From a bacterium (GTDB lineage: Bacteria; Patescibacteriota; Minisyncoccia; Phycocordibacterales; UBA918): DNA of 64,000 bases. This document shows positions 9,282 through 19,622 of this stretch, piece by piece. Each line of letters begins with the position of its first letter. The first letter of the stretch is position 1. The stretch is taken from positions 97,700 through 161,699 of the forward strand of contig JAYSUD010000001.1 of NCBI GenBank assembly GCA_043719295.1. The letters are read 5' to 3'. The notes under the pieces are model-generated. The model was not told the origin of the DNA, ran no database searches, and was given only the letters and a program-made list of their open reading frames with translations. Position numbers and translations under genes: made by a program.

Positions 9282-9354
9282 GGGCCAATAGCTCATTTGG
9301 TAGAGCGCTTCACTTGCACTGAAGAGGCGGGGGGTTCGAATCCTCTTTGGTCCA
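9282..9354 (+). tRNA. tRNA-Ala (anticodon UGC)
   Basis: Manual cloverleaf fold. Acceptor GGGCCAA/TTGGTCC with the G3:U70 alanine identity pair. D-arm GCTC-ATTTGGTA-GAGC. Anticodon stem CTTCA/TGAAG with loop CTTGCAC. T-arm GGGGG-TTCGAAT-CCTCT (two G:U pairs). Discriminator A; CCA not encoded. Confidence 0.85.
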
Positions 9355-9421
9355 CAAACTGTAGGGCTCAAATGCGAATGCATTTGAGCCCTTTACAGTT
9401 TGCGACCAAAGAGGATTCGAA
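9335..9421. repeat. ~87-nt near-perfect palindrome whose left arm is the T-loop/acceptor 3' half of tRNA-Ala
   Basis: Left arm TTCGAATCCTCTTTGGTCCACAAACTGTAGGGCTCAAATGC; loop GAAT; right arm GCATTTGAGCCCTTTACAGTTTGCGACCAAAGAGGATTCGAA. About 38 bp of pairing with one small internal loop. Confidence 0.8.
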
Positions 9422-9564
9422 AGACGCAAGCCGGGGCCCCTCTGGGAGCGGCGGTAAAACAGTATCGGAATACTGTTTTACGGGTCGAGAGTACTTACTA
9501 GAATTGGAGCGAAGCGAACAATTATAGTTAAATAAAACTTTCTGGGAGATAGTTTTATCGTGAC

Positions 9565-9584
9565 CGATTCCTCTTTGGTCCACA
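9565..9584 (+). repeat. Direct repeat of the tRNA-Ala 3' end (candidate attR-like site)
   Basis: CGATTCCTCTTTGGTCCACA versus the tRNA 3' end CGAATCCTCTTTGGTCCACA (9337..9356): 19/20 identical, 228 bp apart. Region 9420..9730 is rich in GC hairpins (AAAACAGTAT-CGGA-ATACTGTTTT; GGGCTTC...GAAGCCC). Confidence 0.7.
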
Positions 9585-9805
9585 CCTTACTTCAAGTAAA
9601 AATATAAAACGATAGCCCTCAAAAGTGGGCTTCCTCAGAGGCCGAAGCCCTAATGCATTTATAATATTCTCAAGTAGATCGGAGTCAAGATATCGTACTG
9701 TGCTTAAATACCCAAAAACTCACCAATAACCGTGAAAAACTACAAAACTTCGTCTTTTTTCACGATTATCATTGACATAATCGTGAAAATTACTATAATA
9801 TTGAT

Positions 9806-10693
9806 ATGTCACGTATACCAAAAACGCATACTGCTATATTGTCGCTCCGTGAGCGGTTTTACAAAGCATTGCCTGGTAAAGAATCTTTACTCCAAATCAT
9901 TAATGAAATTGAAGTATCTGAGCATGTATACAACTCAAACGCCATAGAAAATAGTACGCTAACTTTAGAAGAAACTGAAAAAATTCTTCAGGAGATTGAT
10001 CTATCTCGATATGTGAGTGAAAGAGAATTATTTGAAGCAAAAAACTTAGCTCTGGTAATGAAGTATATAGAAAAGAAGGCTAAAGTGACTGATCCGTCAA
10101 AAGATGTGCTTCTCCTCCTTCATAAAATGTTGCTAGGTAATATTAAGGAAGATATTGCAGGTCGATTTCGGATGCCAACTGAATGGGTGAAAGTCGGAAA
10201 TTATATAGCTGCAAACCCAGCTGATGTCACAAAATTACTTGATTCGATGTTAATTTGCCTACAAACAAACAATCAGGAAAATATCATAAAACGAATTGCA
10301 GAACTTCATCTCACCTTTGAACACATTCACCCATTTTGCGACGGCAATGGTCGAATTGGACGAGTGCTCAACAACTTCATTTTGCTAAAAGAAGGGTATG
10401 TTCCAATTAATATCGCATTTGCTAATAGAGCTGATTATTATGCAGCGTTCAGAAAATTTGATGCTGATGGTGATGTAAGTCTGATGGAAGTAATTGTAGG
10501 TCGTGCATTAACAAACAGTTATCATAAACGACTTGCGTATCTTGAGGGTAAAAAAATTGTGACGTTAAATGAATTTGCAAAAAGCCACAAGCTCTCCATT
10601 TCGAATTTAATCAATAAAGCTCATCGCCAAACAGTTGAAGCTTTTATTGAAAAGGGTGTCTGGAAAATTGCTGATTCATACAAAGTAAAATAA
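9806..10693 (+). CDS. Fic family protein (AMPylation/adenylyltransferase domain)
   Basis: Canonical Fic motif HPFCDGNGRIGR (HxFx[DE]GNGRxxR). Confidence 0.85.
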   Translation: MSRIPKTHTAILSLRERFYKALPGKESLLQIINEIEVSEHVYNSNAIENSTLTLEETEKILQEIDLSRYVSERELFEAKNLALVMKYIEKKAKVTDPSKDVLLLLHKMLLGNIKEDIAGRFRMPTEWVKVGNYIAANPADVTKLLDSMLICLQTNNQENIIKRIAELHLTFEHIHPFCDGNGRIGRVLNNFILLKEGYVPINIAFANRADYYAAFRKFDADGDVSLMEVIVGRALTNSYHKRLAYLEGKKIVTLNEFAKSHKLSISNLINKAHRQTVEAFIEKGVWKIADSYKVK

Positions 10694-10722
10694 TCTTTAC
10701 CAACCTTGGTAGCTTCCATCAT

Positions 10723-11016
10723 ATGCCCCTCCAACAAACACTTATTTTCATCTTAATCCTCATAAACACTATCTCATTCTTTGTAGTAGCAAACGACAAA
10801 CGGAAGGCAATGCAGAGAGGTGACTCCGAACGCATCCCTGAAGGGCTAATCTTCTTCCTAGCTACTGCCTTCGGCAGTATTGGTGTATACGCCAGCATGC
10901 TCATATTCCGCCACAAAACCCGCAAATGGTACTTTCAGGTGGGTATTCCACTCCTAATTTTGCAAAATATAGCATTGCTGTATCTCATCAATGCTTATTT
11001 TGCATTGTATGTTTAG
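10723..11016 (+). CDS. DUF1294-like small membrane protein
   Basis: 97 aa, three TM segments. A paralogous C-terminal fragment lies at 12102..12266 (FGSIGVYASMLIFRHKTRKWYFQVGIPLLILQN). Confidence 0.55.
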   Translation: MPLQQTLIFILILINTISFFVVANDKRKAMQRGDSERIPEGLIFFLATAFGSIGVYASMLIFRHKTRKWYFQVGIPLLILQNIALLYLINAYFALYV

Positions 11017-11046
11017 TGATTATTTAACTGTAGTATACTGAGCATT

Positions 11047-12048
11047 ATGACTGATCATCCAAAAAACTCACAAATTGTAATTTACAAAACTCCTACTGGT
11101 GAGACTAAAATTGATGTCCGGTTTGATGGTGCTACTGTATGGCTCAGTCTTGAACAAATGGCTGAGTTATTCGGTAAAGCAAAATCAACTATAAACGAGC
11201 ATGTTCTCAATATTTTTACTGAAGGTGAGCTCAAAGAATCCTTAGTTTTACAGAAAATCGGAAATTCCGATTTTCTTGAAAAACCAACAAATTACTACAA
11301 TCTTGATGTCATTATTTCAGTTGGGTATAGGGTAAAGTCACTTCAAGGTACTAGATTTCGACAATGGGCGACAGAGAGACTTTCTGAGTATATTGTAAAA
11401 GGCTTTGTTATTGATAGTGAGCGATTAAAAAATCCAGATGTTCCCTTTGATTATTTCGAAGAATTAGAGCGAACAATTGCTGACATTCGTTCGAGTGAAA
11501 AGAGGTTTTATCGAAAGATAACTGATATTTATGCCACCAGCGTTGATTATGATCCAACTAATGACCATAGTCTACTTTTTTTTAAAACAGTACAAAATAA
11601 AGTTCACTTTGCTATAACTGGTAATACAGCTGCAGAAATCGTCGTCGACAGGATAGACGAGCAAAAACCAAATCTTGGTTTAACCTACACGAGAGGTGTA
11701 AAACCAACAAAAGAAGAAATTTCAATCGCAAAAAATTATTATTCGCAAGAAGAGTTGCTTCAACTCAATGCTTTAGTAGAACAATACTTAGTTTTCGCCA
11801 CAGAACAAGCTCGGCGACGGGTATCGATGACTATGCAGGATTGGATAGATAAATTACATGGTTTTCTGAATCTTAACGAACGGGACATTTTAACCGACGC
11901 TGGAAAAATCTCTCATGAAATGATGATTGAAATTACGAATGAAAAGTTTGATCATTATAAAACTAGACAATCAACTATAGATACTGAGTTTGATGATACA
12001 GTGCTTAAAGTACTAGAACAGATCGGTAAAGATGCTTCAAGTAAATAA
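11047..12048 (+). CDS. Virulence-protein RhuM family protein (COG3943/DinD-like)
   Basis: N-terminal RhuM signature: IVIYKTPTGETKIDVRFDGATVWLSLEQMAELFGK...NEHVLNIFTEGEL...NLDVIISVGYRVKSLQGTRFRQWATERL. Confidence 0.8.
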   Translation: MTDHPKNSQIVIYKTPTGETKIDVRFDGATVWLSLEQMAELFGKAKSTINEHVLNIFTEGELKESLVLQKIGNSDFLEKPTNYYNLDVIISVGYRVKSLQGTRFRQWATERLSEYIVKGFVIDSERLKNPDVPFDYFEELERTIADIRSSEKRFYRKITDIYATSVDYDPTNDHSLLFFKTVQNKVHFAITGNTAAEIVVDRIDEQKPNLGLTYTRGVKPTKEEISIAKNYYSQEELLQLNALVEQYLVFATEQARRRVSMTMQDWIDKLHGFLNLNERDILTDAGKISHEMMIEITNEKFDHYKTRQSTIDTEFDDTVLKVLEQIGKDASSK

Positions 12049-12101
12049 CAAGACAAACGCATATCTACATCCCCCAGCAGCCTAAAACGCACCTAGACAC
12101 A

Positions 12102-12266
12102 CCATTCTTCATGGCCGCCGCCTTCGGCGCCATAGGTGTCTACACCGCCATACTCTTCTTCCGCCACAAAACAAGAAAGTGGTACTTTCAAATAGGGATT
12201 CCGCTCCTTATTATCCAGAACTTAGCCGCCGCCTACACCACATGGCAATTTGTCTTTATAAATTGA
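12102..12266 (+). pseudogene. GC-rich fragment (C-terminal ~55 codons) of a second DUF1294 gene
   Basis: Translation PFFMAAAFGAIGVYTAILFFRHKTRKWYFQIGIPLLIIQNLAAAYTTWQFVFIN* aligns to the C-terminus of the 10723..11016 protein. No plausible N-terminus. Codons are strongly GC3-rich (gccgccgccttcggcgcc), unlike the AT-rich host. Confidence 0.6.
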
Positions 12267-12298
12267 GAAAACAGGGCTTAAGTGCTACTCTTTAAGTA

Positions 12299-14686
12299 AT
12301 GAATCTCTACGAAACGCTCCAGCTTGCCAAAAGTGAGGAAGATGTGAAAGATGCGTACATAAAAGCGCTTGGGCTTAAGACTTTTTCTAAAGGTCTTATT
12401 GATATTCAAACAAAAGAAATTTGGTTTGAAGCAAAAGATAAAAGCAACACTACTACATACAAGATGCTCACGCAGCTCTTGCACTATGTGAAGCAATGGA
12501 TGGAACACGGTGAAGAGATTCCGCCATTTTTGTGTGCGATTGATACCGAAAAAGCAGCAATCATGAAAACTGCAGACGCACTGCCACTGTTTGAACGGAA
12601 GGACATCAAGTGGGGAAAGTCTGCAAGTGACGTTACTCCTGAAGCGCTTGAGGCTGTCTCAACATTTATTGGTACACGTTTTGTCTCCTACCGCATCGCA
12701 ACCCACGAACAGGAGTTTATTGATGCAGTAAAAACAGCAATTAAAAACGGCGACATCATCCGTACTGAAATCAAACCAGCAAACATCAAGTCTGTTTTCG
12801 ACAAGTGGGTAGACATGATTGGAAAAGAGATTGGTGACGTTGCGCCAGAGAAGTACGCACTCCTTTTCTTTGCCGACATCATGCATGACGGCACAGTTTC
12901 AACACATAAAGACCTTCCTGCAGAACTCTTGTACAAAGACGGACAACCTGTGTTTCTTCTTGAGGGTAAACTCTATGAACTTGGGAACAAAGAAGGGTAC
13001 CGTCAGTTCTGGGCAATCTACCATAAACCACCACGAGAAGAGCACCGAAACGCAATGCTCGAACGACGTGACACACTCATTCCGTACGACGAACGGAGTT
13101 TTAAAGGTGCCTACTACACCCCACTTCACGTAGTGGATAAAGCGTACGACAAACTCACTGAAACGCTGGGTGACAATTGGCAAGATGAGTACATTGTGTG
13201 GGATATGTGTTGCGGAGTGGGGAACCTCGAAGTTAAACACTCAAACCACCGTAACCTTTACATGTCGACACTCGACCAAGCAGACATCGACGTAATGAAA
13301 GCAACAAAAACCTGCGCAGCTGCAGAACGTTTTCAATATGACTATTTAAATGATGATATTACTGACGATGGAAAGATTGACTACTCACTTACAAATAAAG
13401 TTCCTGCGGGACTTCGCAAAGCAATAGCCGATGGCAAGAAAATTCTAGTGCTCATAAACCCACCATATGCGGAAGCTGGTGAGGGTATTGGAGAAGGAAA
13501 TAAAGAAAAAGTTGCTAAGACAAAGTTCTCAGCTACTGCAATGGAAAACTGGGGGAAAGCAAGTAATGAATTATTTACGCAATTCGTAGCTCGCATTTCA
13601 CAAGAAATACCAACTGCAACTCTCGCAATGTTCAGTAAATTAAAATATGTTAATGCACCTAATTTTGAAAAATTTAGACAAGCATGGAATTCGGAATACT
13701 TAGATGGATTTATTGTCCATAGTAAAGCATTTGATGGTCTAAAAGGACTATTTCCAATTGGTTTCCTTATCTGGAAAACATATCCTGATTCAAAAGATAA
13801 ATTCGAAATAACTGAAGTTACAACTGATGTTTTAGATAAATATGCTTTACCAATTGGAGCAAAGAAATTCTATAATTTACCCAATGACGCTTTTTTAAAC
13901 AAGTGGTTAGATAGACCAAAACCAAACACTACAGAAGTAGTACCTTTAAAAAACACAGTGTCAGTATCAACTGCTCAAAACACTGTAACTCTTTCAAAAT
14001 GGTCAGATGGGGCAGTTGGGTATTTTTTCTGTGACAGCAATGACTTCCAAAATGCAGCACAGTCAACAGTATTACTTTCTTCTACATATTTTAAAGGGCA
14101 TGGCTTTTATATAACTGAAGATAACTTATGGCAGTCATCGATAATCTTTTCAGTGCGTCGCTTAATTAAACCAACTTGGCAAAACGATCGTGATCAATTC
14201 TTACAACCAACAGGTGAGCTCACTGACGAATTCAAAAATGATTGTCTTATATGGATACTATTTAATGGAAGTAACTTAACAGCAAGTGCAAATGACCTTG
14301 AATGGAACGACAAAAAGTGGTCAATTGTAAATCATTTTATTCCGTACACTGAAAGTGAAGTTGGAGCGCCAGGACGTTTTGAAAGTGACTTTATGGTGGG
14401 GTACATGAAAGACAAAGTGTTTTCAGAGAAAGCACAGGCGGTACTCGCAGATGGGAAGAAGCTTTGGAGTGCATACTTTGAACACACCGACCCACACACC
14501 GTCCGCGAAGAACTCAAGCTCAACCGCCCCGACGTCGGCTGGTACCAAATCCGCAACGCGCTGAAGCGCCGCAACGAAAGTGGCGACTACAACCCCATCT
14601 CATTCACCGAGTTTGAAACCACCTACAAACTCCTCACCGAAAAACTCCGTCCCCAAGTGTATAGTCTTGGTTTCCTAAAAGAATAA
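12299..14686 (+). CDS. Type IIG/IIL restriction-modification enzyme, MmeI-like (fused PD-(D/E)xK endonuclease, N6-adenine methyltransferase and target-recognition domain)
   Basis: N-terminal nuclease motif IDIQTKEIWFEAKDK (D...ExK). gamma-class N6-MTase motifs FKGAYYTPLHVVD (motif I/X region) and LINPPY (motif IV, NPPY). 795 aa, a single polypeptide with no separate S or R gene. Confidence 0.7.
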   Translation: MNLYETLQLAKSEEDVKDAYIKALGLKTFSKGLIDIQTKEIWFEAKDKSNTTTYKMLTQLLHYVKQWMEHGEEIPPFLCAIDTEKAAIMKTADALPLFERKDIKWGKSASDVTPEALEAVSTFIGTRFVSYRIATHEQEFIDAVKTAIKNGDIIRTEIKPANIKSVFDKWVDMIGKEIGDVAPEKYALLFFADIMHDGTVSTHKDLPAELLYKDGQPVFLLEGKLYELGNKEGYRQFWAIYHKPPREEHRNAMLERRDTLIPYDERSFKGAYYTPLHVVDKAYDKLTETLGDNWQDEYIVWDMCCGVGNLEVKHSNHRNLYMSTLDQADIDVMKATKTCAAAERFQYDYLNDDITDDGKIDYSLTNKVPAGLRKAIADGKKILVLINPPYAEAGEGIGEGNKEKVAKTKFSATAMENWGKASNELFTQFVARISQEIPTATLAMFSKLKYVNAPNFEKFRQAWNSEYLDGFIVHSKAFDGLKGLFPIGFLIWKTYPDSKDKFEITEVTTDVLDKYALPIGAKKFYNLPNDAFLNKWLDRPKPNTTEVVPLKNTVSVSTAQNTVTLSKWSDGAVGYFFCDSNDFQNAAQSTVLLSSTYFKGHGFYITEDNLWQSSIIFSVRRLIKPTWQNDRDQFLQPTGELTDEFKNDCLIWILFNGSNLTASANDLEWNDKKWSIVNHFIPYTESEVGAPGRFESDFMVGYMKDKVFSEKAQAVLADGKKLWSAYFEHTDPHTVREELKLNRPDVGWYQIRNALKRRNESGDYNPISFTEFETTYKLLTEKLRPQVYSLGFLKE

Positions 14687-14726
14687 CTTAGTTGACTGCA
14701 AAAATACTAGGCGTATATTATAGAAG

Positions 14727-15053
14727 ATGACAATCTCAAAAAATACACCTCTAAAAGGACAGTTTCGACATATTGTATTTAAAGACAAAGGTGTTTGGTA
14801 TGCAGTTGCACTTGAATTTAATATTGTCGAATCTAGTGATGATCCACGATTGGCGTACTTCAACCTACTACAAGCTGTTGACGGGTATATTGCTGCTATG
14901 CGGAAAATTAAGGGTGCTCGTAATTTCTCGCCCCTCAATCAGCCACCAGCGAAAGAGTACCAAGAGCTGTGGAATCAATTGAATTCTAATAAACCAGTAA
15001 AATCACCTTATCAAGTAAACTCTTTTGGAGTTTCTTCAACTACACATGCCTAA
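14727..15053 (+). CDS. hicB: HicB-like antitoxin (UPF0150/DUF1902 RNase H-like fold)
   Basis: 108 aa; VWYAVALEFNIVESSDDPRLAYFNLLQAVDGYIAA resembles the HicB N-domain. Overlaps the HicA gene immediately downstream. Confidence 0.45.
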   Translation: MTISKNTPLKGQFRHIVFKDKGVWYAVALEFNIVESSDDPRLAYFNLLQAVDGYIAAMRKIKGARNFSPLNQPPAKEYQELWNQLNSNKPVKSPYQVNSFGVSSTTHA

Positions 15054-15273
15054 GAAGTTGCATAATTGGAAGTTTAGAGAGGTTGAGCGTTTTTTAAAGA
15101 ATAATGACTTTGTACTCCATCACACAAATGGTAGTCATTACTATTACATTGGCAACAGTGAGCATCTTGTATGCGTTCCATATCACGGAAGTATTGCAAT
15201 TAAAACACGCACTATGAAAGGAGTAATCACACAATCAGGTATTTCACAAAATGATTGGCTAAAAGATACGTAA
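15046..15273 (+). CDS. hicA: HicA family mRNA interferase toxin
   Basis: MPKKLHNWKFREVERFLKNNDFVLHHTNGSHYYY: YcfA/HicA fold with the GSH motif. Start taken at MPKK; the listed ORF has an 8-codon upstream extension. Confidence 0.65.
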   Translation: MPKKLHNWKFREVERFLKNNDFVLHHTNGSHYYYIGNSEHLVCVPYHGSIAIKTRTMKGVITQSGISQNDWLKDT

Positions 15274-15405
15274 ACTGTACACTTTAAATATAGCTAATAA
15301 GGAAACTCGCAATGCATTTGTTGTAGGAATGTCAGAAGATGACGCAATTGCTCAGATTTCAATGAGTAAGTAGCTTATTTCTGTAAACTTACTGAACTTT
15401 GAAAT

Positions 15406-15446
15406 AATAAATCCCCTAAGTTTATGCTTCTAGGGGATTTATTTGT
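15406..15446. terminator. Bidirectional intrinsic terminator
   Basis: AAATAAATCCCCTAAG-loop-CTAGGGGATTTATTTG, a perfect stem flanked by A/T runs, between the hicA 3' end (+) and the small minus-strand gene. Confidence 0.6.
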
Positions 15447-15447
15447 T

Positions 15448-15570
15448 TTACTTCTTATCTCGTCTCTGTCGAAGAGCAGAAGCAGCTGCTGTTTTTGAGT
15501 TCTTACCAGTACTACCACTTTTCAGTACTTTTGAAGCAGCTTTACCGGCTTTCTTTGATGTTTTTGCCAT
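15448..15570 (-). CDS. Small basic 40-aa protein (unannotated short ORF)
   Basis: MAKTSKKAGKAASKVLKSGSTGKNSKTAAASALRQRRDKK; ATG 15568..15570, TAA 15448..15450. Terminator hairpin immediately 3'. Below the ORF-track size cut-off. Confidence 0.35.
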   Translation of the reverse strand: MAKTSKKAGKAASKVLKSGSTGKNSKTAAASALRQRRDKK

Positions 15571-15705
15571 TGTTTAAACACACGTTTACATCAGTCGACT
15601 TCCACCTTATGTGGCCTGATATTTTCATTATATCACACGCTGACAAGTTAACACTATACACAGTAAACTTGTAAAGATTCAAAAAAAGAGTAGTATACTG
15701 TTCTT

Positions 15706-16431
15706 ATGACTACTTGGATACAAAACAAACGTCAATCAGTAGGTTTATCTCAAACTGAAGTTGCAGAAAGTTTGGGTATTTCTCGACCGACGTATATAAA
15801 ACTTGAACGGGGGATTGCTGAACCTACAGAACACCAGAAGGCAATTCTTGCGAGTCTTTTTGATGTATCACGGGAGACTGTGACAAAAAAATCACTAGAG
15901 ACAGTGGGAGTTTCAAATGCAGTCTATGTAAAGGAAGTGCCTAAGGAGAACGTACAAAAGTTTGAGCAGGTATTACTCTATATAGTGAGTAAAGTGGGAA
16001 GTCGCCCAAATATTGGTCAGACTGCACTCTATAAACTGCTGTATTTTATTGATTTTGATTATTACGAAAAGTATCAGGAATATTTGATTGGCGCTGTGTA
16101 CATTAAAAACACTCATGGTCCAAGTCCTGTGTCGTTTGCTAAGATTGCGCGTAACCTAGAGACGTCGGGGAAACTTGTGTTGGTGCAGAGTAAATACTTT
16201 GGATTTGACCAGAAAAAGTATCTAGTAACCAGCGATACGGTAGTTTCTTATTTAAGTGCGCAGGAGCTTAAACATATTGACGATGAACTAGAACGACTTG
16301 CTTCAAAAAGCGCAAAGGAGCTTTCTGACCTATCACACATTGATACTCCATGGCGTGTTGCAAAGGAAAAGCAAGTTTTAAATTATCGTCATGCATTCTA
16401 TCGACCCGATGAAACTTCTGTAGTTGAATAA
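15706..16431 (+). CDS. XRE-family HTH / Panacea (DUF4065, SocA-like) domain antitoxin
   Basis: N-terminal HTH QSVGLSQTEVAESLGISRPTYIKLERG. C-terminal DUF4065-like core GQTALYKLLYFIDFDYYEKYQEYLIGAVYIKNTHGPSPVSF. Confidence 0.65.
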   Translation: MTTWIQNKRQSVGLSQTEVAESLGISRPTYIKLERGIAEPTEHQKAILASLFDVSRETVTKKSLETVGVSNAVYVKEVPKENVQKFEQVLLYIVSKVGSRPNIGQTALYKLLYFIDFDYYEKYQEYLIGAVYIKNTHGPSPVSFAKIARNLETSGKLVLVQSKYFGFDQKKYLVTSDTVVSYLSAQELKHIDDELERLASKSAKELSDLSHIDTPWRVAKEKQVLNYRHAFYRPDETSVVE

Positions 16432-16777
16432 ATTGTCTATGAGTATGTTTTCAGTGTTGCCAGAATTTGAGAAAGAATTAAAAAAGCTTTCAAAAAAATA
16501 TCCAACATTGCCTTCTGATATTGAAGACATTAAACCTATCCTTGAAGAGACTAAAACAGGAATTGGAAAAAATTTTACGATTATTGCAACTGCTAAAGAT
16601 GTTCAGATTGTAAAAGTGCGAATTTTGTGTGAATCACTCCGCTCAAGAACAGTGCGACTTATCTACGCGTACCATAAAAACAAAATTGAGTTTATGTATA
16701 TCGAGATATATTTTAAAGGTGATACAGAGAATGAAGATAAATCTAGAATTAAAGAATATTTAGAAGGACTCAGTTAG
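16424..16777 (+). CDS. RelE/ParE-superfamily-like toxin (putative partner of the Panacea antitoxin)
   Basis: Overlaps the upstream gene by 8 nt. FEKELKKLSKKYPTLPSDIEDI...RTVRLIYAYHKNKIEFMYIEIYFKGD resembles the RelE/StbE pattern F.K.LKKL...YRiIY...I.Il.Ig.R.D. Confidence 0.45.
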   Translation: MNKLSMSMFSVLPEFEKELKKLSKKYPTLPSDIEDIKPILEETKTGIGKNFTIIATAKDVQIVKVRILCESLRSRTVRLIYAYHKNKIEFMYIEIYFKGDTENEDKSRIKEYLEGLS

Positions 16778-16850
16778 AATGCAACAAATCAACTGCTAAA
16801 ATATAATATACAGGTCTAGTCTCTCTAAGTGTGAAGAAAATAACATAAAA

Positions 16851-17381
16851 CTATTTTTTCACCCCAACAAACTCGTTCAGCATTGCTAAGTATTGATCGG
16901 TGACTTTTTTAGGGATTTTAGGGTGAGTAAATGGTTTGATTACTCCTTTGTTCTTAATGATGGTGTCTACTTGATCAAAATAGAACCCCTGTGGTGTAGC
17001 GATAAATAATGCAGCGTTACGCCATGAACGTTCTATCTCTTTTGCTATTGCGTTCACTTTGCCGTTGGTACGAGTAGCCATGTACTTTATTTCTACAAGT
17101 GTCACATTGTGATTTTCTTCATTTACAATGGCATAGTCGGGAGCTTTACGAACAATCTCTATCATTGCCCGAGCGTCTGCACTTTGTTTCGCTTTTGCAA
17201 GTTGATGTACTACTTTTTCATACCCAAATTCTAGAACGGTATATCCTTTAGTGTTGTGAATCATTTGTTCAAATATAATTTCTGCAATTTTCCCCTTAAT
17301 AAGCTCGTGTGTAAATTTTATGTTGTTCATATACGGTAAGTATACTCCCGACTTCAGACTGGTAATGATACGAATCCCCAC
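16851..17381 (-). CDS. Hypothetical small PD-(D/E)xK nuclease-like protein
   Basis: Ordered motifs E(F)GYE ... APDYAIV ... LVEIKY (PD-x12-ExK). Divergently arranged from the RhuM-Doc gene. An alternative start MNNIKF at 17330 is possible. Confidence 0.4.
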   Translation of the reverse strand: MGIRIITSLKSGVYLPYMNNIKFTHELIKGKIAEIIFEQMIHNTKGYTVLEFGYEKVVHQLAKAKQSADARAMIEIVRKAPDYAIVNEENHNVTLVEIKYMATRTNGKVNAIAKEIERSWRNAALFIATPQGFYFDQVDTIIKNKGVIKPFTHPKIPKKVTDQYLAMLNEFVGVKK

Positions 17382-17406
17382 GTCCTTATCGTGCTACCAT
17401 TAACTC

Positions 17407-18414
17407 ATGATAAAAAAATCTACCAAAACCGAATTGGTTATTTTTAAGGGAAGTAAGGGGCAGGTTAAGCTTCGAGGAGATTTTCATAATGATACGTTGT
17501 GGGCGACACAAGCCGAGATTGCTGAATTATTCGATGTGGATGTTCGAACAATAAATGAGCACCTCAAGAATATCTACCGTACTGAAGAACTGTCAAAAAA
17601 AGCAACTATCCGGAATTTCCGGATAGTTAAAACAGAAGGAAATCGAAACGTCGAGCGTGATGTTTTTCACTATAATTTGGATGCAATAATTTCAACTGGA
17701 TATCGTGTAAATAGCAAAAAAGCTACTCAATTCCGCCAATGGGCAACAAATGTTGTAAAGTTACATATTACTGATGGCTTCACCATCAACAAAAGCCGTA
17801 TCGCCACCAACTATGAGGACTTTATGAAGGCAGTTACCCTTGTAAAGAATCTTGCTCCAAAGAGGAGTAATGTCGATACAGAATCGGTTCTTGAACTTGT
17901 ACAGCTTTTTGCTGACACGTGGTTCTCCCTTGATGCGTATGATAAAGAAGCGCTTGCTCCGGGAAAGGTTAATAAAAAGAAAGTTAAACTGACTTCTGTA
18001 GAATTCTTGGAAAATGTGACTGTACTCAAAGGCGAGCTCATACGAAAAGGAGAAGCTACAGAAAACTTTGCTTTAGAACGCAATCGTGAAGCAGTTGAGG
18101 GTATTATCGGTAACGTGATGCAGAGCTTTGGTGGGAAAGAAGTGTACCCGACAATAGAAGAGAAAGCGGCACACTTGATGTACTTTATCATCAAGAATCA
18201 TCCGTTTGTTGATGGTAACAAACGTACGGGTGCCTATGCATTAGTCTGGTTCTTGCAAAAGATGAAAGTGCTTGATATACATCGTCTATCGCCAACTGCA
18301 CTTACGGCACTCACACTCCTTGTAGCGGAAAGTAATCCAAAAGACAAAGAAAAAGTGGTAGCACTTGTGGTCTTACTGATAGCAGGACCAATACAGAAAA
18401 ATCGGAAGAAGTAA
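17407..18414 (+). CDS. RhuM N-terminal domain fused to a C-terminal Doc/Fic toxin domain
   Basis: N-terminal LWATQAEIAELFDVDVRTINEHLKNIYRTEEL...NLDAIISTGYRVNSKKATQFRQWATN aligns to the RhuM at 11047. C-terminal HPFVDGNKRTG matches the Doc motif HxFx(D/N)GNKR. Confidence 0.75.
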   Translation: MIKKSTKTELVIFKGSKGQVKLRGDFHNDTLWATQAEIAELFDVDVRTINEHLKNIYRTEELSKKATIRNFRIVKTEGNRNVERDVFHYNLDAIISTGYRVNSKKATQFRQWATNVVKLHITDGFTINKSRIATNYEDFMKAVTLVKNLAPKRSNVDTESVLELVQLFADTWFSLDAYDKEALAPGKVNKKKVKLTSVEFLENVTVLKGELIRKGEATENFALERNREAVEGIIGNVMQSFGGKEVYPTIEEKAAHLMYFIIKNHPFVDGNKRTGAYALVWFLQKMKVLDIHRLSPTALTALTLLVAESNPKDKEKVVALVVLLIAGPIQKNRKK

Positions 18415-18415
18415 C

Positions 18416-19027
18416 ATGTTCCCAAAAAGCTCAAATGAATACAAACTACTTTCTAAACTCAATACACCTCAAAAGGTGCAGACTTTCTTGGAATCTATTC
18501 CCTTTAACCATGAGGAAAATGGGATGACGTGCAGGTCGGGGTATCTCGCTTTAAAAGAGAATAAGGCACACTGTATCGAAGGAGCGTTTATTGGAGCTTT
18601 TGCATTACACTTGCAAGGCAGAGATGCAACACTTGTGAGTTTAAAAGTGAAGAAACCTGATGATGATCACGTTATTGTACTTTTTAAAGAAAACGGTTTC
18701 TACGGAGCGTTAAGCAAAACAAACCACCCCGTGCTTCGCTATCGCGATCCTGTGTACAAAACAGTTCGTGAACTCGTTATGTCGTACTTTCATGAGTATT
18801 TTTTATATACAAATGGAAAGAAAACACTTCAAGGCTACACTAAGCCCATTAACTTAAAGCGCTATGGCACAAAATGGATAACAGGAGAAGAAGATGTGTG
18901 GGAGATTGGAAACGATATTTATAATCTACCAATAATCACCATCGTTCCTGACGCAAACAAACACCTCCTTCGTAACGCAACTCAATTTGAACGTACTTCA
19001 CTTGATGTGCAAGAGTGGAAGCAATAA
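18416..19027 (+). CDS. Hypothetical protein co-transcribed with the RhuM-Doc gene (Cys/His/Asp, papain-like or transglutaminase-like?)
   Basis: ATG 2 nt after the Doc gene stop. Conserved-looking order GMTCRSGYLAL ... DDDHVIVLF ... D, compatible with a Cys-His-Asp triad. Fold is unassigned. Confidence 0.4.
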   Translation: MFPKSSNEYKLLSKLNTPQKVQTFLESIPFNHEENGMTCRSGYLALKENKAHCIEGAFIGAFALHLQGRDATLVSLKVKKPDDDHVIVLFKENGFYGALSKTNHPVLRYRDPVYKTVRELVMSYFHEYFLYTNGKKTLQGYTKPINLKRYGTKWITGEEDVWEIGNDIYNLPIITIVPDANKHLLRNATQFERTSLDVQEWKQ

Positions 19028-19154
19028 AGCAAGGTAGTATCTTTTAAATTTCATTTTCAGTATCTGGTTTAAGTTCAGAAAATCAGTTTTATTATACTTG
19101 TGTCAAAATTGTATCAATGCTTTAATTCCTGTTGGTTCAAAACAGGGGACTCCA

Positions 19155-19622
19155 ATGTTTGAGACATTCATCGACTTCTCGGTAAACGGTAGAGACTATA
19201 GTGATTGGGTCTTGTTGGTTAATCGCCTTGCTATCGGGTTGTTCTGTGCAATTTCGTGTTTTCACAAGCTCTTTGTCAAAGAAAGACAAGAACAACTTGT
19301 GCAAACACTTATCGCGTGCAAGATACCTTTTGTGAGTTTTTGCAGATGGTTTGTGCCACTGGTTGAGTTCTTTGGTGGTTTAGCTGTAATTTCTGGTGTT
19401 CTCGCACCACTTGCAGCACTTGGACTACTGATAATTTTCTTGGTCGCTTTGTATACTGAAGGACCCAAGAGAATTAAGGAGTTCAAACCCATCAACGCTG
19501 CTGACTACTTGGATGATGTTCTCTATTTGTCTGAAACAACGTACGTGGTGATGGCATTGTTCGTTATGTTCATTGGTACGGGGAAGTACACCTTTATGTG
19601 GGTTGTTATACTCCTTTTCTAA
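19155..19622 (+). CDS. DoxX family membrane protein
   Basis: Four TM helices, with DoxX-like segments LLVNRLAIGLFCAISCFHKLF and LVEFFGGLAVISGVLAPLAALGLLIIFLVALY. Start taken at MFETF. Confidence 0.55.
   Translation: MFETFIDFSVNGRDYSDWVLLVNRLAIGLFCAISCFHKLFVKERQEQLVQTLIACKIPFVSFCRWFVPLVEFFGGLAVISGVLAPLAALGLLIIFLVALYTEGPKRIKEFKPINAADYLDDVLYLSETTYVVMALFVMFIGTGKYTFMWVVILLF

What the first reader, a model, noticed from the sequence alone, without database searches (positions are those of the whole stretch)
9600..19100. Accessory island next to tRNA-Ala: recurrent RhuM-Fic/Doc linkage plus RM and three TA modules
Seen in sequence: between the tRNA-Ala att-like site and the DoxX gene lie, in order:
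- Fic (HPFCDGNGRIGR), a DUF1294 membrane protein and RhuM (11047..12048);
- a GC-rich DUF1294 gene fragment;
- an MmeI-like type IIG RM enzyme;
- HicB/HicA;
- an XRE-Panacea antitoxin with a RelE-like toxin;
- a divergent small PD-(D/E)xK-like protein;
- a second RhuM N-domain covalently fused to a Doc toxin domain (HPFVDGNKRTG), whose stop is 2 nt from the ATG of a 203-aa Cys/His/Asp protein.

The RhuM N-domain therefore meets a Fic-fold domain twice in 8 kb, once as a neighbour and once as a fusion. This is a Rosetta-stone pattern, and the second case has a tightly coupled downstream partner.

Established knowledge: Fic/Doc domains are AMPylating or phosphorylating toxins normally held in check by an antitoxin. 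RhuM (COG3943, DinD-like) has no assigned function.

Inference: RhuM may be the regulatory or sensor partner of a Fic/Doc effector in an abortive-infection/TA-like module. In that reading the 203-aa protein would be a third component (protease-like activator or antitoxin). The whole segment is a defence island.
Basis: partly seen in the sequence, partly recalled or inferred. Interest (0 to 1): 0.75.

Follow-up and report, generated by a model that had tools for sequence, protein, structure and literature searches.

The report
Known RhuM–Doc defence fusion in CPR
Next to a tRNA gene, this small-genome (CPR) bacterium carries a patchwork of independent defence and toxin–antitoxin genes; the RhuM–Doc fusion is real but belongs to a family already described, and its supposed 203-aa partner is an unrelated, conserved protease (CPR-C4).

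Summary

1. The RhuM–Doc fusion is not new. It was noted in 2013 (PMC3710099). It matches PADLOC's single-gene candidate PDC-S23 over its full length (E 1e-106). The same domain pair was studied experimentally in BifA (PMC6529018). About 500 clusters at 50% identity exist, and 16 of 80 sampled RhuM-N loci are Doc fusions.
2. The Fic gene near RhuM looks like island co-location. Only 2 of 64 non-fusion RhuM loci have a separate Fic gene within 10 kb. This Fic also carries its own inhibitory motif. A stand-alone RhuM gene is reported to protect by itself.
3. The 203-aa "third component" is CPR-C4, a solved and conserved CPR cysteine protease. It has no RhuM, Doc or Fic neighbour in 80 surveyed loci plus 6 examined contexts, and it is absent from all 80 RhuM loci.
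4. The "MmeI-like", "HicB" and "RelE-like" labels have no database support.

Most likely the fusion is a self-contained defence or toxin protein: a DNA-binding-type N-module, a helical linker and a Doc kinase. That mechanism is inferred, not shown. Interest is low.

The parts
9282..9355 (+). tRNA-Ala (TGC); left flank of the gene cluster
   Evidence: ARAGORN; Rfam tRNA, 64.7 bits
9335..9422 (.). 88-nt near-perfect hairpin whose left arm is the 3' end of the tRNA; possible terminator or relic of an att site
   Evidence: Sequence; RNA fold -65.4 kcal/mol, z -13.4; the miRNA-like Rfam hits are below threshold and reflect only the long hairpin
9565..9584 (+). Direct repeat of the tRNA 3' end (19 of 20 bases); att-like, but only 228 bp from the tRNA copy
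   Evidence: the repeat finder family D2; no further copy in the window
9806..10693 (+). Fic protein with canonical HPFCDGNGRIGR and an N-terminal inhibitory-helix motif SNAIEN (class II type); matches PADLOC PDC-S04 and SoFic models
   Evidence: PF02661 1.7e-18; PDC-S04 1.6e-30 and SoFic 6e-28; motifs read in the translation
10723..11016 (+). DUF1294 small membrane protein
   Evidence: PF06961 7e-18
11047..12048 (+). Full-length RhuM (N-module plus RhuM C-region); PADLOC single-gene candidate PDC-S05
   Evidence: PF13310 9e-97, profile 17-249 of 252; PDC-S05 3.6e-123
12105..12266 (+). 5'-truncated DUF1294 paralogue (gene fragment); a sign of rearrangement
   Evidence: PF06961 profile 31-55 only; 75% DNA identity to 10852-10973
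12299..14686 (+). 795-aa orphan protein with invariant N6-adenine methyltransferase motifs (NPPY); horizontally spread; type IIG-like at best and not an MmeI-family member
   Evidence: No Pfam hit; sub-threshold N6_Mtase; no PDB relative; 66% identity on an Acinetobacter plasmid; more than 5,000 homologue clusters at 70-81% identity; invariant motifs; GC 0.41-0.47 against about 0.35 nearby
14727..15053 (+). 108-aa protein overlapping the start of HicA; antitoxin by position, family unrecognised
   Evidence: No hit in any library; the pair with HicA recurs at 83% and 80% identity on contig L173
15025..15273 (+). HicA toxin
   Evidence: PF07927 2e-10
15706..16431 (+). XRE-HTH plus SocA/Panacea antitoxin
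   Evidence: PF13274 9.6e-14 and PF01381 1.1e-11
16424..16777 (+). 117-aa protein overlapping the Panacea gene by 8 nt; presumed cognate toxin, family unknown
   Evidence: Coordinates; no hit in any library
16851..17381 (-). 176-aa protein with a PD...EIK motif; no family match
   Evidence: Translation; no hits; absent from the 80 RhuM loci
17407..17811 (+). RhuM N-module of the fusion (aa 1-135): beta-strands plus a winged-HTH-like core, probably binds nucleic acid
17812..18015 (+). Helical linker of the fusion (aa 136-203), modelled with lower confidence
   Evidence: AF2 helices 125-149, 158-179 and 197-213, pLDDT 61-71; L175 nearly invariant and D179 invariant across 79 homologues
18016..18414 (+). 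Doc-type Fic-fold domain of the fusion (aa 204-335) with intact K-x-HPFVDGNKR (nt 18199-18225)
18416..19027 (+). CPR-C4 cysteine protease orthologue (vasohibin-like); conserved CPR gene; right flank, not part of the module
   Evidence: phmmer 9.6e-47 to 7OB6; Foldseek E 2e-21, TM 0.90, 42% identity; AF2 pLDDT 93.8; C53, H85 and L107 invariant; contexts
19098..19622 (+). DoxX membrane protein; flank
   Evidence: PF07681 3.9e-10

Best explanation
Window 9.6-18.4 kb is a mosaic cluster of independently acquired defence-type and toxin-antitoxin genes in a Paceibacteria-type (CPR) genome. It sits between tRNA-Ala and the conserved CPR-C4 protease gene.

The 'RhuM-Fic/Doc linkage' is two unrelated things.
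(a) A Fic protein that carries its own inhibitory-helix motif (PADLOC PDC-S04/SoFic-like) lies two genes upstream of a full-length RhuM (PDC-S05). Each belongs to a single-gene defence candidate family, and the two are neighbours only because such genes cluster.
(b) The fusion is one member of a widespread, already catalogued single-gene family (PDC-S23). In this family the ~135-aa RhuM N-module is joined through a helical linker to a catalytically intact Doc domain.

Proposed mechanism for the fusion (inferred): it works as a self-contained, single-chain toxin or defence protein. The N-module has a winged-HTH-like fold and would bind nucleic acid. Together with the linker it would hold or target the Doc domain. 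On a trigger such as phage infection, the Doc domain would act like P1 Doc and phosphorylate EF-Tu, stopping translation (abortive infection).

Shown here: the domain identities, the intact catalytic motif, the absence of any conserved partner gene, and the swapping of C-terminal modules (RhuM-C, Doc, and a third unannotated one) on a constant N-module.
Inferred: DNA binding, cis-inhibition, the target, and the anti-phage role.
For: - Domain calls pass curated cut-offs.
- Full-length matches to PADLOC PDC-S23 (1.2e-106), PDC-S05 (3.6e-123) and PDC-S04/SoFic.
- The HxFxDGNKR motif is nearly invariant in 79 family representatives.
- 497 representatives at E<=1e-30, mostly aligning end to end.
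- Among 84 RhuM-N ORFs in 80 genomic loci, about 60 carry RhuM-C, 16 carry Doc and 5 carry another C-terminal module.
- No family recurs among 51 genes flanking the 16 fusions.
- The 203-aa gene is CPR-C4. It is never near RhuM, Doc or Fic elsewhere and never in RhuM loci.
- The CPR-C4 paper states that gene position is uninformative and that no partner is needed.
- A single RhuM-domain gene gave about 1,000-fold protection against T7 and T5.
- The fusion and the positional equivalence of RhuM and Doc in R-M loci were published earlier.
- Mosaic history: a GC range of 0.32-0.47, a truncated DUF1294 copy, and a 795-aa gene 66% identical to one on an Acinetobacter plasmid.
Against: - No experiment bears on this protein or on PDC-S23. 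PDC classes are described by their authors as untested candidates.
- The one studied protein with this domain pair, BifA, was characterised as a virulence factor acting on a eukaryotic protein, with its RhuM part dispensable for the effects tested.
- The inter-domain geometry of the model is uncertain (pTM 0.60, linker pLDDT 61-71), so cis-inhibition cannot be read from it.
- The 1-nt spacing to CPR-C4 makes co-transcription in this genome likely, so a local functional tie cannot be strictly excluded.
- The survey of neighbouring Fic genes covers only 64 loci and has no matched control.
- The segment has no integrase and no clear distal att site, so 'island' rests on gene content and composition.
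Confidence: 0.7

Rival explanations
1. RhuM is the sensor or regulatory partner of a Fic/Doc effector, both in trans (the Fic ... RhuM neighbours) and in cis (the fusion). The tightly coupled 203-aa Cys/His protein is a third component, a protease-type activator or antitoxin, of an abortive-infection module.
For: The fusion is real and recurrent. The 203-aa gene starts 1 nt after the fusion's stop codon and is a cysteine protease. One other locus, L052, has a Fic gene directly upstream of a RhuM gene.
Against: - The 203-aa protein is CPR-C4. It has no RhuM, Doc or Fic neighbour in 80 surveyed loci (55 with at least 1 kb upstream) or in six other contexts.
- It is absent from all 80 RhuM loci, including six CPR fusion loci.
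- The genes downstream of the fusions vary in size, strand and family.
- Separate Fic genes occur near only 2 of 64 non-fusion RhuM loci.
- This Fic has its own inhibitory motif.
- Stand-alone RhuM is reported to defend alone.
- Stand-alone RhuM-N genes are not followed by Doc or Fic genes in 3 of 3 cases.
Confidence: 0.04
2. The fusion is a fused toxin-antitoxin addiction module that stabilises the gene cluster or the genome and has no role against phage. The N-module acts as a DNA-binding autorepressor and cis-antitoxin, as Phd does for Doc.
For: The layout of an N-terminal DNA-binding-type domain, a helical segment and Doc mirrors Phd-Doc joined into one chain. No separate antitoxin gene is conserved nearby. 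The fusion sits among other TA pairs.
Against: The family was catalogued because members are embedded in R-M, BREX or DISARM loci. Two of the 16 sampled fusions sit within type I R-M genes. The sister architecture, RhuM, gave phage protection. A single-chain toxin-antitoxin has no labile antitoxin to drive post-segregational killing unless a protease processes it.
Confidence: 0.12
3. The RhuM module is itself a toxin or effector domain (the 2013 proposal), so the fusion is a two-effector protein rather than a sensor joined to an effector.
For: Proposed in PMC3710099 from the positional equivalence of RhuM and Doc in R-M/PrrC loci. Stand-alone RhuM is sufficient for defence, so some part of it must act as an effector.
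Against: Only the N-terminal ~135 aa of RhuM is present in the fusion. That part resembles small DNA-binding winged-HTH domains rather than an enzyme. The RhuM C-region, which is the better effector candidate, is exactly what Doc replaces.
Confidence: 0.08
4. The fusion is a host-directed effector. CPR bacteria live attached to host cells, and BifA, which has the same domain pair, acts on host proteins. The Doc domain would then modify a host protein rather than the bacterium's own EF-Tu.
For: BifA (RhuM plus Fic) promotes phosphorylation of host moesin in a manner dependent on the Fic histidine. The genome is of CPR type: CPR-C4 is present and its homologues come from Paceibacteria.
Against: The reading frame shows no obvious secretion signal, and there are no secretion genes nearby. 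The family is spread across free-living phyla and sits in R-M contexts. Orthology to BifA was not tested.
Confidence: 0.05

Closest known systems
PADLOC PDC-S23 (single-gene phage defence candidate; RhuM N-module plus Doc)
   Same: Matches three PDC-S23 models over their full length (E 1.2e-106, residues 7-326 on model positions 4-324 of 327). It has the same two-domain layout and, like the class, no conserved partner gene.
   Different: The class was defined from genes embedded in R-M, BREX or DISARM systems. Here the gene is not embedded in such a system; it lies between a divergent 176-aa gene and CPR-C4. The class has not been tested experimentally.
P1 Doc toxin of the Phd-Doc system (PDB 3DD7, 3K33)
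   Different: There is no Phd-type antitoxin gene. Doc is instead the C-terminal third of a 335-aa protein, preceded by a RhuM N-module and a helical linker. Only about 20% sequence identity to P1 Doc.
RhuM family (PF13310; PADLOC PDC-S05)
   Same: Shares the N-terminal ~135 aa (37% identity to the window's own RhuM; invariant W32, H52, Y89, G98, Y99, F109 and others in the N-module alignment).
   Different: The fusion lacks the RhuM C-region (profile positions 70-252). Doc takes its place.
BifA of Streptococcus equi subsp. zooepidemicus (PMC6529018)
   Same: [quoted passage not shown] Its activity depends on the Fic-motif histidine.
   Different: It was characterised as a virulence factor acting on host moesin. 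Sequence relatedness to the window protein was not tested here.
CPR-C4 cysteine protease (PDB 7OB6, 7OB7, 7PJO; PMC9108980)
   Same: The 203-aa protein is an orthologue: 42% identity, TM 0.90, phmmer 1e-46, and a conserved Cys-His-Leu(carbonyl) triad at C53, H85 and L107.
   Different: Nothing of note. The adjacency to RhuM-Doc is particular to this genome.
SoFic / class II Fic AMP-transferases
   Same: Canonical HPFxDGNGRxxR motif and an N-terminal (S/T)xxxE(G/N) inhibitory motif. PADLOC SoFic model E 6e-28 and PDC-S04 1.6e-30.
   Different: Far below the NCBIfam SoFic equivalog cut-off (42.7 bits against 550). It is a Fic relative, not a SoFic orthologue.

Membership tests
Fic/Doc superfamily, Doc subfamily (PF02661; TIGR01550) | HMM score above the curated cut-off | tested here: met
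   PF02661 50.8 bits (cut-off 24); TIGR01550 43.6 bits (cut-off 38.65)
Fic/Doc superfamily, Doc subfamily (PF02661; TIGR01550) | Doc-type catalytic motif HxFx(D/N)(A/G)NKR | tested here: met
   HPFVDGNKR at aa 265-273; nearly invariant in 79 homologues
Fic/Doc superfamily, Doc subfamily (PF02661; TIGR01550) | Doc fold | tested here: met
Phd-Doc type II toxin-antitoxin system | Adjacent cognate Phd-type antitoxin gene | tested here: not met
   The upstream gene is a divergent 176-aa ORF with no family match and the downstream gene is CPR-C4; no partner family recurs in 16 fusion loci
Phd-Doc type II toxin-antitoxin system | Phosphorylation of EF-Tu and arrest of translation | not testable with these tools
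   Requires biochemistry
Virulence_RhuM (PF13310) | Match over the whole profile | tested here: met
   For 11047-12048: profile positions 17-249 of 252, 323.7 bits
Virulence_RhuM (PF13310) | Match over the whole profile (fusion protein 17407-18414) | tested here: not met
   Only profile positions 1-69 of 252 match; similarity to the window's RhuM ends at aa 132. It shares the N-module only
PADLOC PDC-S23 | Full-length match to the class HMMs | tested here: met
   E 1.2e-106, 7.3e-99 and 2.8e-92, each over nearly the whole model
PADLOC PDC-S23 | Acts as a single gene (no conserved partner) | tested here: met
   No family recurs among 51 genes flanking 16 fusions
PADLOC PDC-S23 | Anti-phage activity | not testable with these tools
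   The class is listed as an untested candidate; no paper mentions PDC-S23
   None of 80 CPR-C4 loci, none of 6 other contexts, and none of 80 RhuM loci
CPR-C4 protease family | Sequence and fold match to the solved structure, with the Cys-His-Leu triad conserved | tested here: met
   phmmer 9.6e-47; Foldseek E 2e-21, TM 0.90; C53, H85 and L107 invariant; triad as given in PMC9108980
Class II Fic (self-inhibited AMP-transferase) | HxFx(D/E)GNGRxxR motif plus an N-terminal (S/T)xxxE(G/N) inhibitory motif | tested here: met
   HPFCDGNGRIGR and S44-N-A-I-E48-N49 in the translation. The meaning of the motifs comes from established knowledge of Fic classes, not from a test here
SoFic equivalog (NF046030) | Score above the equivalog cut-off | tested here: not met
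   42.7 bits against a cut-off of 550
MmeI-like type IIG/IIL restriction-modification enzymes | Match to MmeI domain models or to the MmeI structure sequence | tested here: not met
   No Pfam family at E<=0.01 and none at E<=10 for the N- and C-terminal thirds; no PDB hit by sequence or by profile
MmeI-like type IIG/IIL restriction-modification enzymes | N6-adenine methyltransferase motifs I and IV | tested here: inconclusive
   D302, G306 and N387-P-P-Y390 are invariant, but N6_Mtase scores 16.2 bits, below its 20.4 cut-off
HicAB | HicA and HicB HMM matches | tested here: inconclusive
   HicA is met (41 bits). The upstream 108-aa protein matches no HicB model, but the pair is conserved on L173
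Panacea-type toxin-antitoxin pair | SocA_Panacea antitoxin next to an identifiable toxin | tested here: inconclusive
   The Panacea domain is met (52.7 bits). The overlapping 117-aa ORF has no family match
tRNA-integrated genomic island | Integrase gene and att repeats bracketing the island | tested here: not met
   No integrase among the ORFs. The only repeat of the tRNA 3' end lies 228 bp from the tRNA, and there is none at the far end

The most novel reading that the evidence does not exclude
The ~135-aa RhuM N-module may be a portable nucleic-acid-sensing or targeting module that gates interchangeable C-terminal effectors in cis. Three such C-terminal modules were seen here: the RhuM C-region, a Doc kinase, and an unannotated ~150-aa module found mostly in Campylobacterota. 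RhuM, RhuM-Doc and their relatives would then form one modular family of single-chain immune proteins, analogous to fused toxin-antitoxin sensors such as CapRel. That would give the long-unexplained RhuM family a mechanism.
Probability: 0.3. Interest if true: 0.5.

Novelty: new member of a known kind. Interest (0 to 1): 0.2.

Why it matters
As it stands, little. The window adds CPR (Paceibacteria) examples of defence-candidate families that are already catalogued, and it removes a tempting but wrong three-gene model.

The question that remains open is how RhuM-family proteins work. They are very common in defence islands, one member has been reported to protect strongly against phage, and no mechanism is known. 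The architecture survey here shows a constant N-module with a DNA-binding-type fold and at least three alternative C-terminal modules. That gives a concrete hypothesis that domain-swap and point-mutant experiments can test.

It also shows that a tight gene junction in a compact CPR genome is weak evidence of functional coupling.

Tried and rejected
1. The 203-aa protein as a partner of RhuM-Doc. Rejected after the homologue search, six gene contexts, an 80-locus metagenome survey and the structure match to CPR-C4.
2. A split two-gene version, with a short RhuM-N gene followed by Doc or Fic. Three long-contig cases showed none. On L173 the short gene aligns to aa 4-162 of the fusion and no Doc remnant follows it.
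3. A more sensitive search for Fic genes near stand-alone RhuM genes, using a custom HMM and a relaxed motif. It added nothing beyond L052 and L085.
4. An 'empty site' in relatives, sought through the upstream 238-aa gene. The metagenome scan found no relative, so the island's boundaries could not be fixed by comparison.
5. Classifying the RhuM N-module through Pfam at relaxed thresholds. Only weak generic HTH hits appeared, and no ORF6N, KilA-N or Bro-N match for the window proteins. A weak Bro-N-like N-terminal extension occurs only in Bacteroidales variants.
7. MmeI or type IIG identity of the 795-aa protein. Pfam on the whole protein and in thirds, PADLOC, NCBIfam, PDB sequence and PDB profile searches all failed to place it.
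8. Sequence-only PDB searches for the 108-, 117- and 176-aa proteins returned chance-level hits.
9. The Rfam scan found only the tRNA. The miRNA-like hits are an artefact of the long hairpin.
10. Searches for papers naming PDC-S23 found none.

Full report
**1. What is in the sequence**

Curated HMMs confirm the following genes.

| Coordinates | Call | Evidence |
|---|---|---|
| 9806-10693 | Fic | PF02661, 67.7 bits |
| 10723-11016 | DUF1294 | PF06961, 65 bits |
| 11047-12048 | Full-length RhuM | PF13310, 323.7 bits, profile 17-249 of 252 |
| 12111-12266 | DUF1294 fragment | Profile 31-55 only |
| 15025-15273 | HicA | PF07927, 41 bits |
| 15706-16431 | XRE-HTH + SocA_Panacea | PF01381, PF13274 |
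| 17407-18414 | RhuM N-module + Doc | PF13310 profile 1-69 only, 82 bits; PF02661, 50.8 bits; TIGR01550, 43.6 bits against 38.65 |
| 19098-19622 | DoxX | PF07681 |

The fusion's stop codon (18412-18414) and the next ATG (18416) are one base apart.

Four labels have no database support:
- The 795-aa 'MmeI-like' protein matches no Pfam model. Its middle third gives only a sub-threshold N6_Mtase hit. It has no PDB relative by sequence or by profile.
- The 'HicB', 'RelE-like' and 'PD-(D/E)xK-like' ORFs match nothing in five libraries.

**2. The fusion is a known family**

PADLOC models give full-length matches. The fusion is PDC-S23 (E 1.2e-106, model positions 4-324 of 327), the stand-alone RhuM is PDC-S05 (3.6e-123), and the Fic matches PDC-S04 and SoFic models. 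PDC classes are candidate defence genes found embedded in R-M, BREX or DISARM systems and added to PADLOC untested (bioRxiv 10.1101/2024.01.29.577857).

Earlier literature already covers the linkage:
- Anantharaman et al. [quoted passage not shown] - A single RhuM-domain gene (PDC-S05) is reported to reduce plating of T7 and T5 about 1,000-fold (bioRxiv 10.1101/2024.09.26.614923).

**3. How common the linkage is**

An exhaustive HMMER search with the fusion found 22,653 representatives at E<=0.001 and 497 at E<=1e-30. Most of the top 150 are 320-340 aa and align end to end.

A scan of one genome per species with an N-module alignment found at least 597 loci. The best 80 loci contain 84 ORFs with the N-module:

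| C-terminal part | Count |
|---|---|
| RhuM C-region | about 60 |
| Doc (Gammaproteobacteria, Bacteroidota, Omnitrophota, several CPR lineages) | 16 |
| Unannotated region of about 150 aa | 5 |
| Short forms | a few |

The neighbour half is not. In 879 kb around the 64 non-fusion loci, only two separate Fic genes were found (L052, L085). This count used phmmer, a custom HMM and motif scans.

The window's two RhuM-type proteins share 37% identity over residues 1-132 only, so they were acquired separately.

**4. No partner for the fusion**

The 51 genes within two positions of the 16 genomic fusions show no recurrent Pfam family. Two loci have type I R-M pieces, and the rest are unrelated.

Three stand-alone short N-module genes on long contigs are not followed by Doc or Fic genes.

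**5. The 203-aa gene**

It has more than 3,100 homologue clusters. The top 120 are about 200 aa long and 56-81% identical, and those with names come from Paceibacteria-type assemblies.

An AlphaFold model (pLDDT 93.8) matches CPR-C4, 'a conserved novel protease from the Candidate Phyla Radiation', with E 2e-21, TM 0.90 and 42% identity. phmmer gives 9.6e-47 to 7OB6. The published Cys-His-Leu(carbonyl) triad (PMC9108980) corresponds to the invariant C53, H85 and L107. That paper also states that gene position offers no functional clue and that no binding partner is indicated.

The context survey agrees:
- Six contexts examined here are all different and lack RhuM, Doc and Fic.
- In 80 further metagenomic loci (495 kb; 55 have at least 1 kb upstream), no island gene of this window appears.
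- The family is absent from all 80 RhuM loci.

The tight junction is therefore particular to this genome. The same arrangement is seen in a second assembly, probably of the same organism. The gene is best read as the conserved right flank of the cluster.

**6. Structure and likely mechanism of the fusion**

The AlphaFold model (pLDDT 83.4, pTM 0.60) has three parts:
- A confident N-domain (aa ~30-120), with beta-strands flanking a helix-turn-helix.
- Two long helices modelled with lower confidence (aa 125-179).
- A confident C-domain.

From established knowledge of P1 Doc, which is a kinase that inactivates EF-Tu and is blocked by the C-terminal helix of Phd, I infer the following. The fusion is a single-chain toxin or defence protein whose N-module and linker bind nucleic acid and restrain or direct the Doc domain. 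None of this was tested, and the inter-domain geometry is not reliable enough to show occlusion of the active site.

The Fic gene needs no external regulator. It carries S44-x-x-x-E48-N49 upstream of HPFCDGNGRIGR, which is the class II inhibitory-helix motif known from work on Fic proteins.

**7. The 'island'**

Evidence for a mosaic, horizontally acquired cluster:
- GC content ranges from 0.32 to 0.47.
- A 5'-truncated DUF1294 paralogue sits just after RhuM.
- The 795-aa gene is 66% identical over its full length to a gene on a 9.8-kb Acinetobacter plasmid.
- The 108-aa/HicA pair recurs at 83% and 80% identity on another contig, next to a truncated RhuM-N gene.

Evidence against a classical tRNA-integrated element:
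- There is no integrase.
- The only direct repeat of the tRNA 3' end lies 228 bp from the tRNA.

An empty-site comparison failed.

**8. Verdict**

The central inference, a RhuM-Fic/Doc functional link, is true for the fusion but was already published and catalogued. The neighbour instance and the three-component model are not supported.

The window provides new CPR members of known kinds. The open question is the mechanism of the RhuM family, for which the constant-N-module, swappable-C-module pattern gives a testable lead.

Noticed in passing
window 12299-14686 (+): The 795-aa protein belongs to a very large orphan family: more than 5,000 clusters of about 795-aa proteins, all annotated 'hypothetical' and none with a Pfam domain. 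Members are 70-81% identical over their full length across CPR, Bacteroidota and proteobacterial plasmids (66% on a 9.8-kb Acinetobacter plasmid). The methyltransferase motifs, including NPPY, are invariant. Such uniform conservation, including the C-terminal third, is unusual for a type IIG enzyme. This may be the least understood gene in the segment.
   Followed up: partly
window 9335-9422: An 88-nt near-perfect hairpin (-65 kcal/mol, z -13) uses the last ~20 nt of tRNA-Ala as its left arm, with an inverted copy of the tRNA 3' end at about 9404-9422. Together with the direct copy at 9565-9584, this suggests relics of past integration events or an unusual terminator.
   Followed up: partly
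window 12105-12266 and 10852-10973: A 5'-truncated DUF1294 paralogue (75% DNA identity to the intact copy) lies immediately after RhuM. RhuM is therefore bracketed by DUF1294 sequence, a footprint of insertion or recombination.
   Followed up: partly
L173:585-1134 and L173:4001-4510; window 14727-15273 and 17407-17900: Another Paceibacteria-type contig shares the 108-aa/HicA pair (83% and 80% amino-acid identity, 76% DNA identity). About 3 kb away it has a 169-aa RhuM-N-only gene that is 66% identical to aa 4-162 of the fusion, with no Doc remnant. This could be a related cluster that has lost Doc, or a genuine short form.
   Followed up: partly
one search hit list (P0121-P0240): The closest relatives of the fusion's N-module are mostly short RhuM-N-only proteins of 130-240 aa. 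Many sit on long contigs, so they are not contig-end truncations. They are common in CPR. Whether they function or are decaying is unknown.
   Followed up: partly
L009, L025, L047, L062 (Campylobacterota) and L017 (Myxococcaceae): These are RhuM N-modules joined to an unannotated C-terminal region of about 150 aa that is neither RhuM-C nor Doc. It may be a third effector module. I did not test whether these regions are related to one another.
   Followed up: no
L033, L079, L085 (Bacteroidales): Full-length RhuM proteins here carry an extra ~125-aa N-terminal extension with weak, sub-threshold Bro-N similarity (E about 1e-3).
   Followed up: no
L052:9111-12157: A Cytophagales locus has a Fic gene immediately upstream of two tandem RhuM genes, with a third RhuM gene 7 kb away. 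It is the only sampled locus that resembles the window's Fic-RhuM neighbourhood.
   Followed up: no
window 16851-17381 (-): The 176-aa ORF contains a textbook PD...(14 aa)...E-I-K motif but matches no family in any library, and it is not found near RhuM genes elsewhere.
   Followed up: partly
L176:8607-9377: On a Ligilactobacillus salivarius megaplasmid, a distant (25%) homologue of the 795-aa protein lies about 2 kb from an annotated Fic family protein. This is a single case and probably reflects clustering of defence genes.
   Followed up: no
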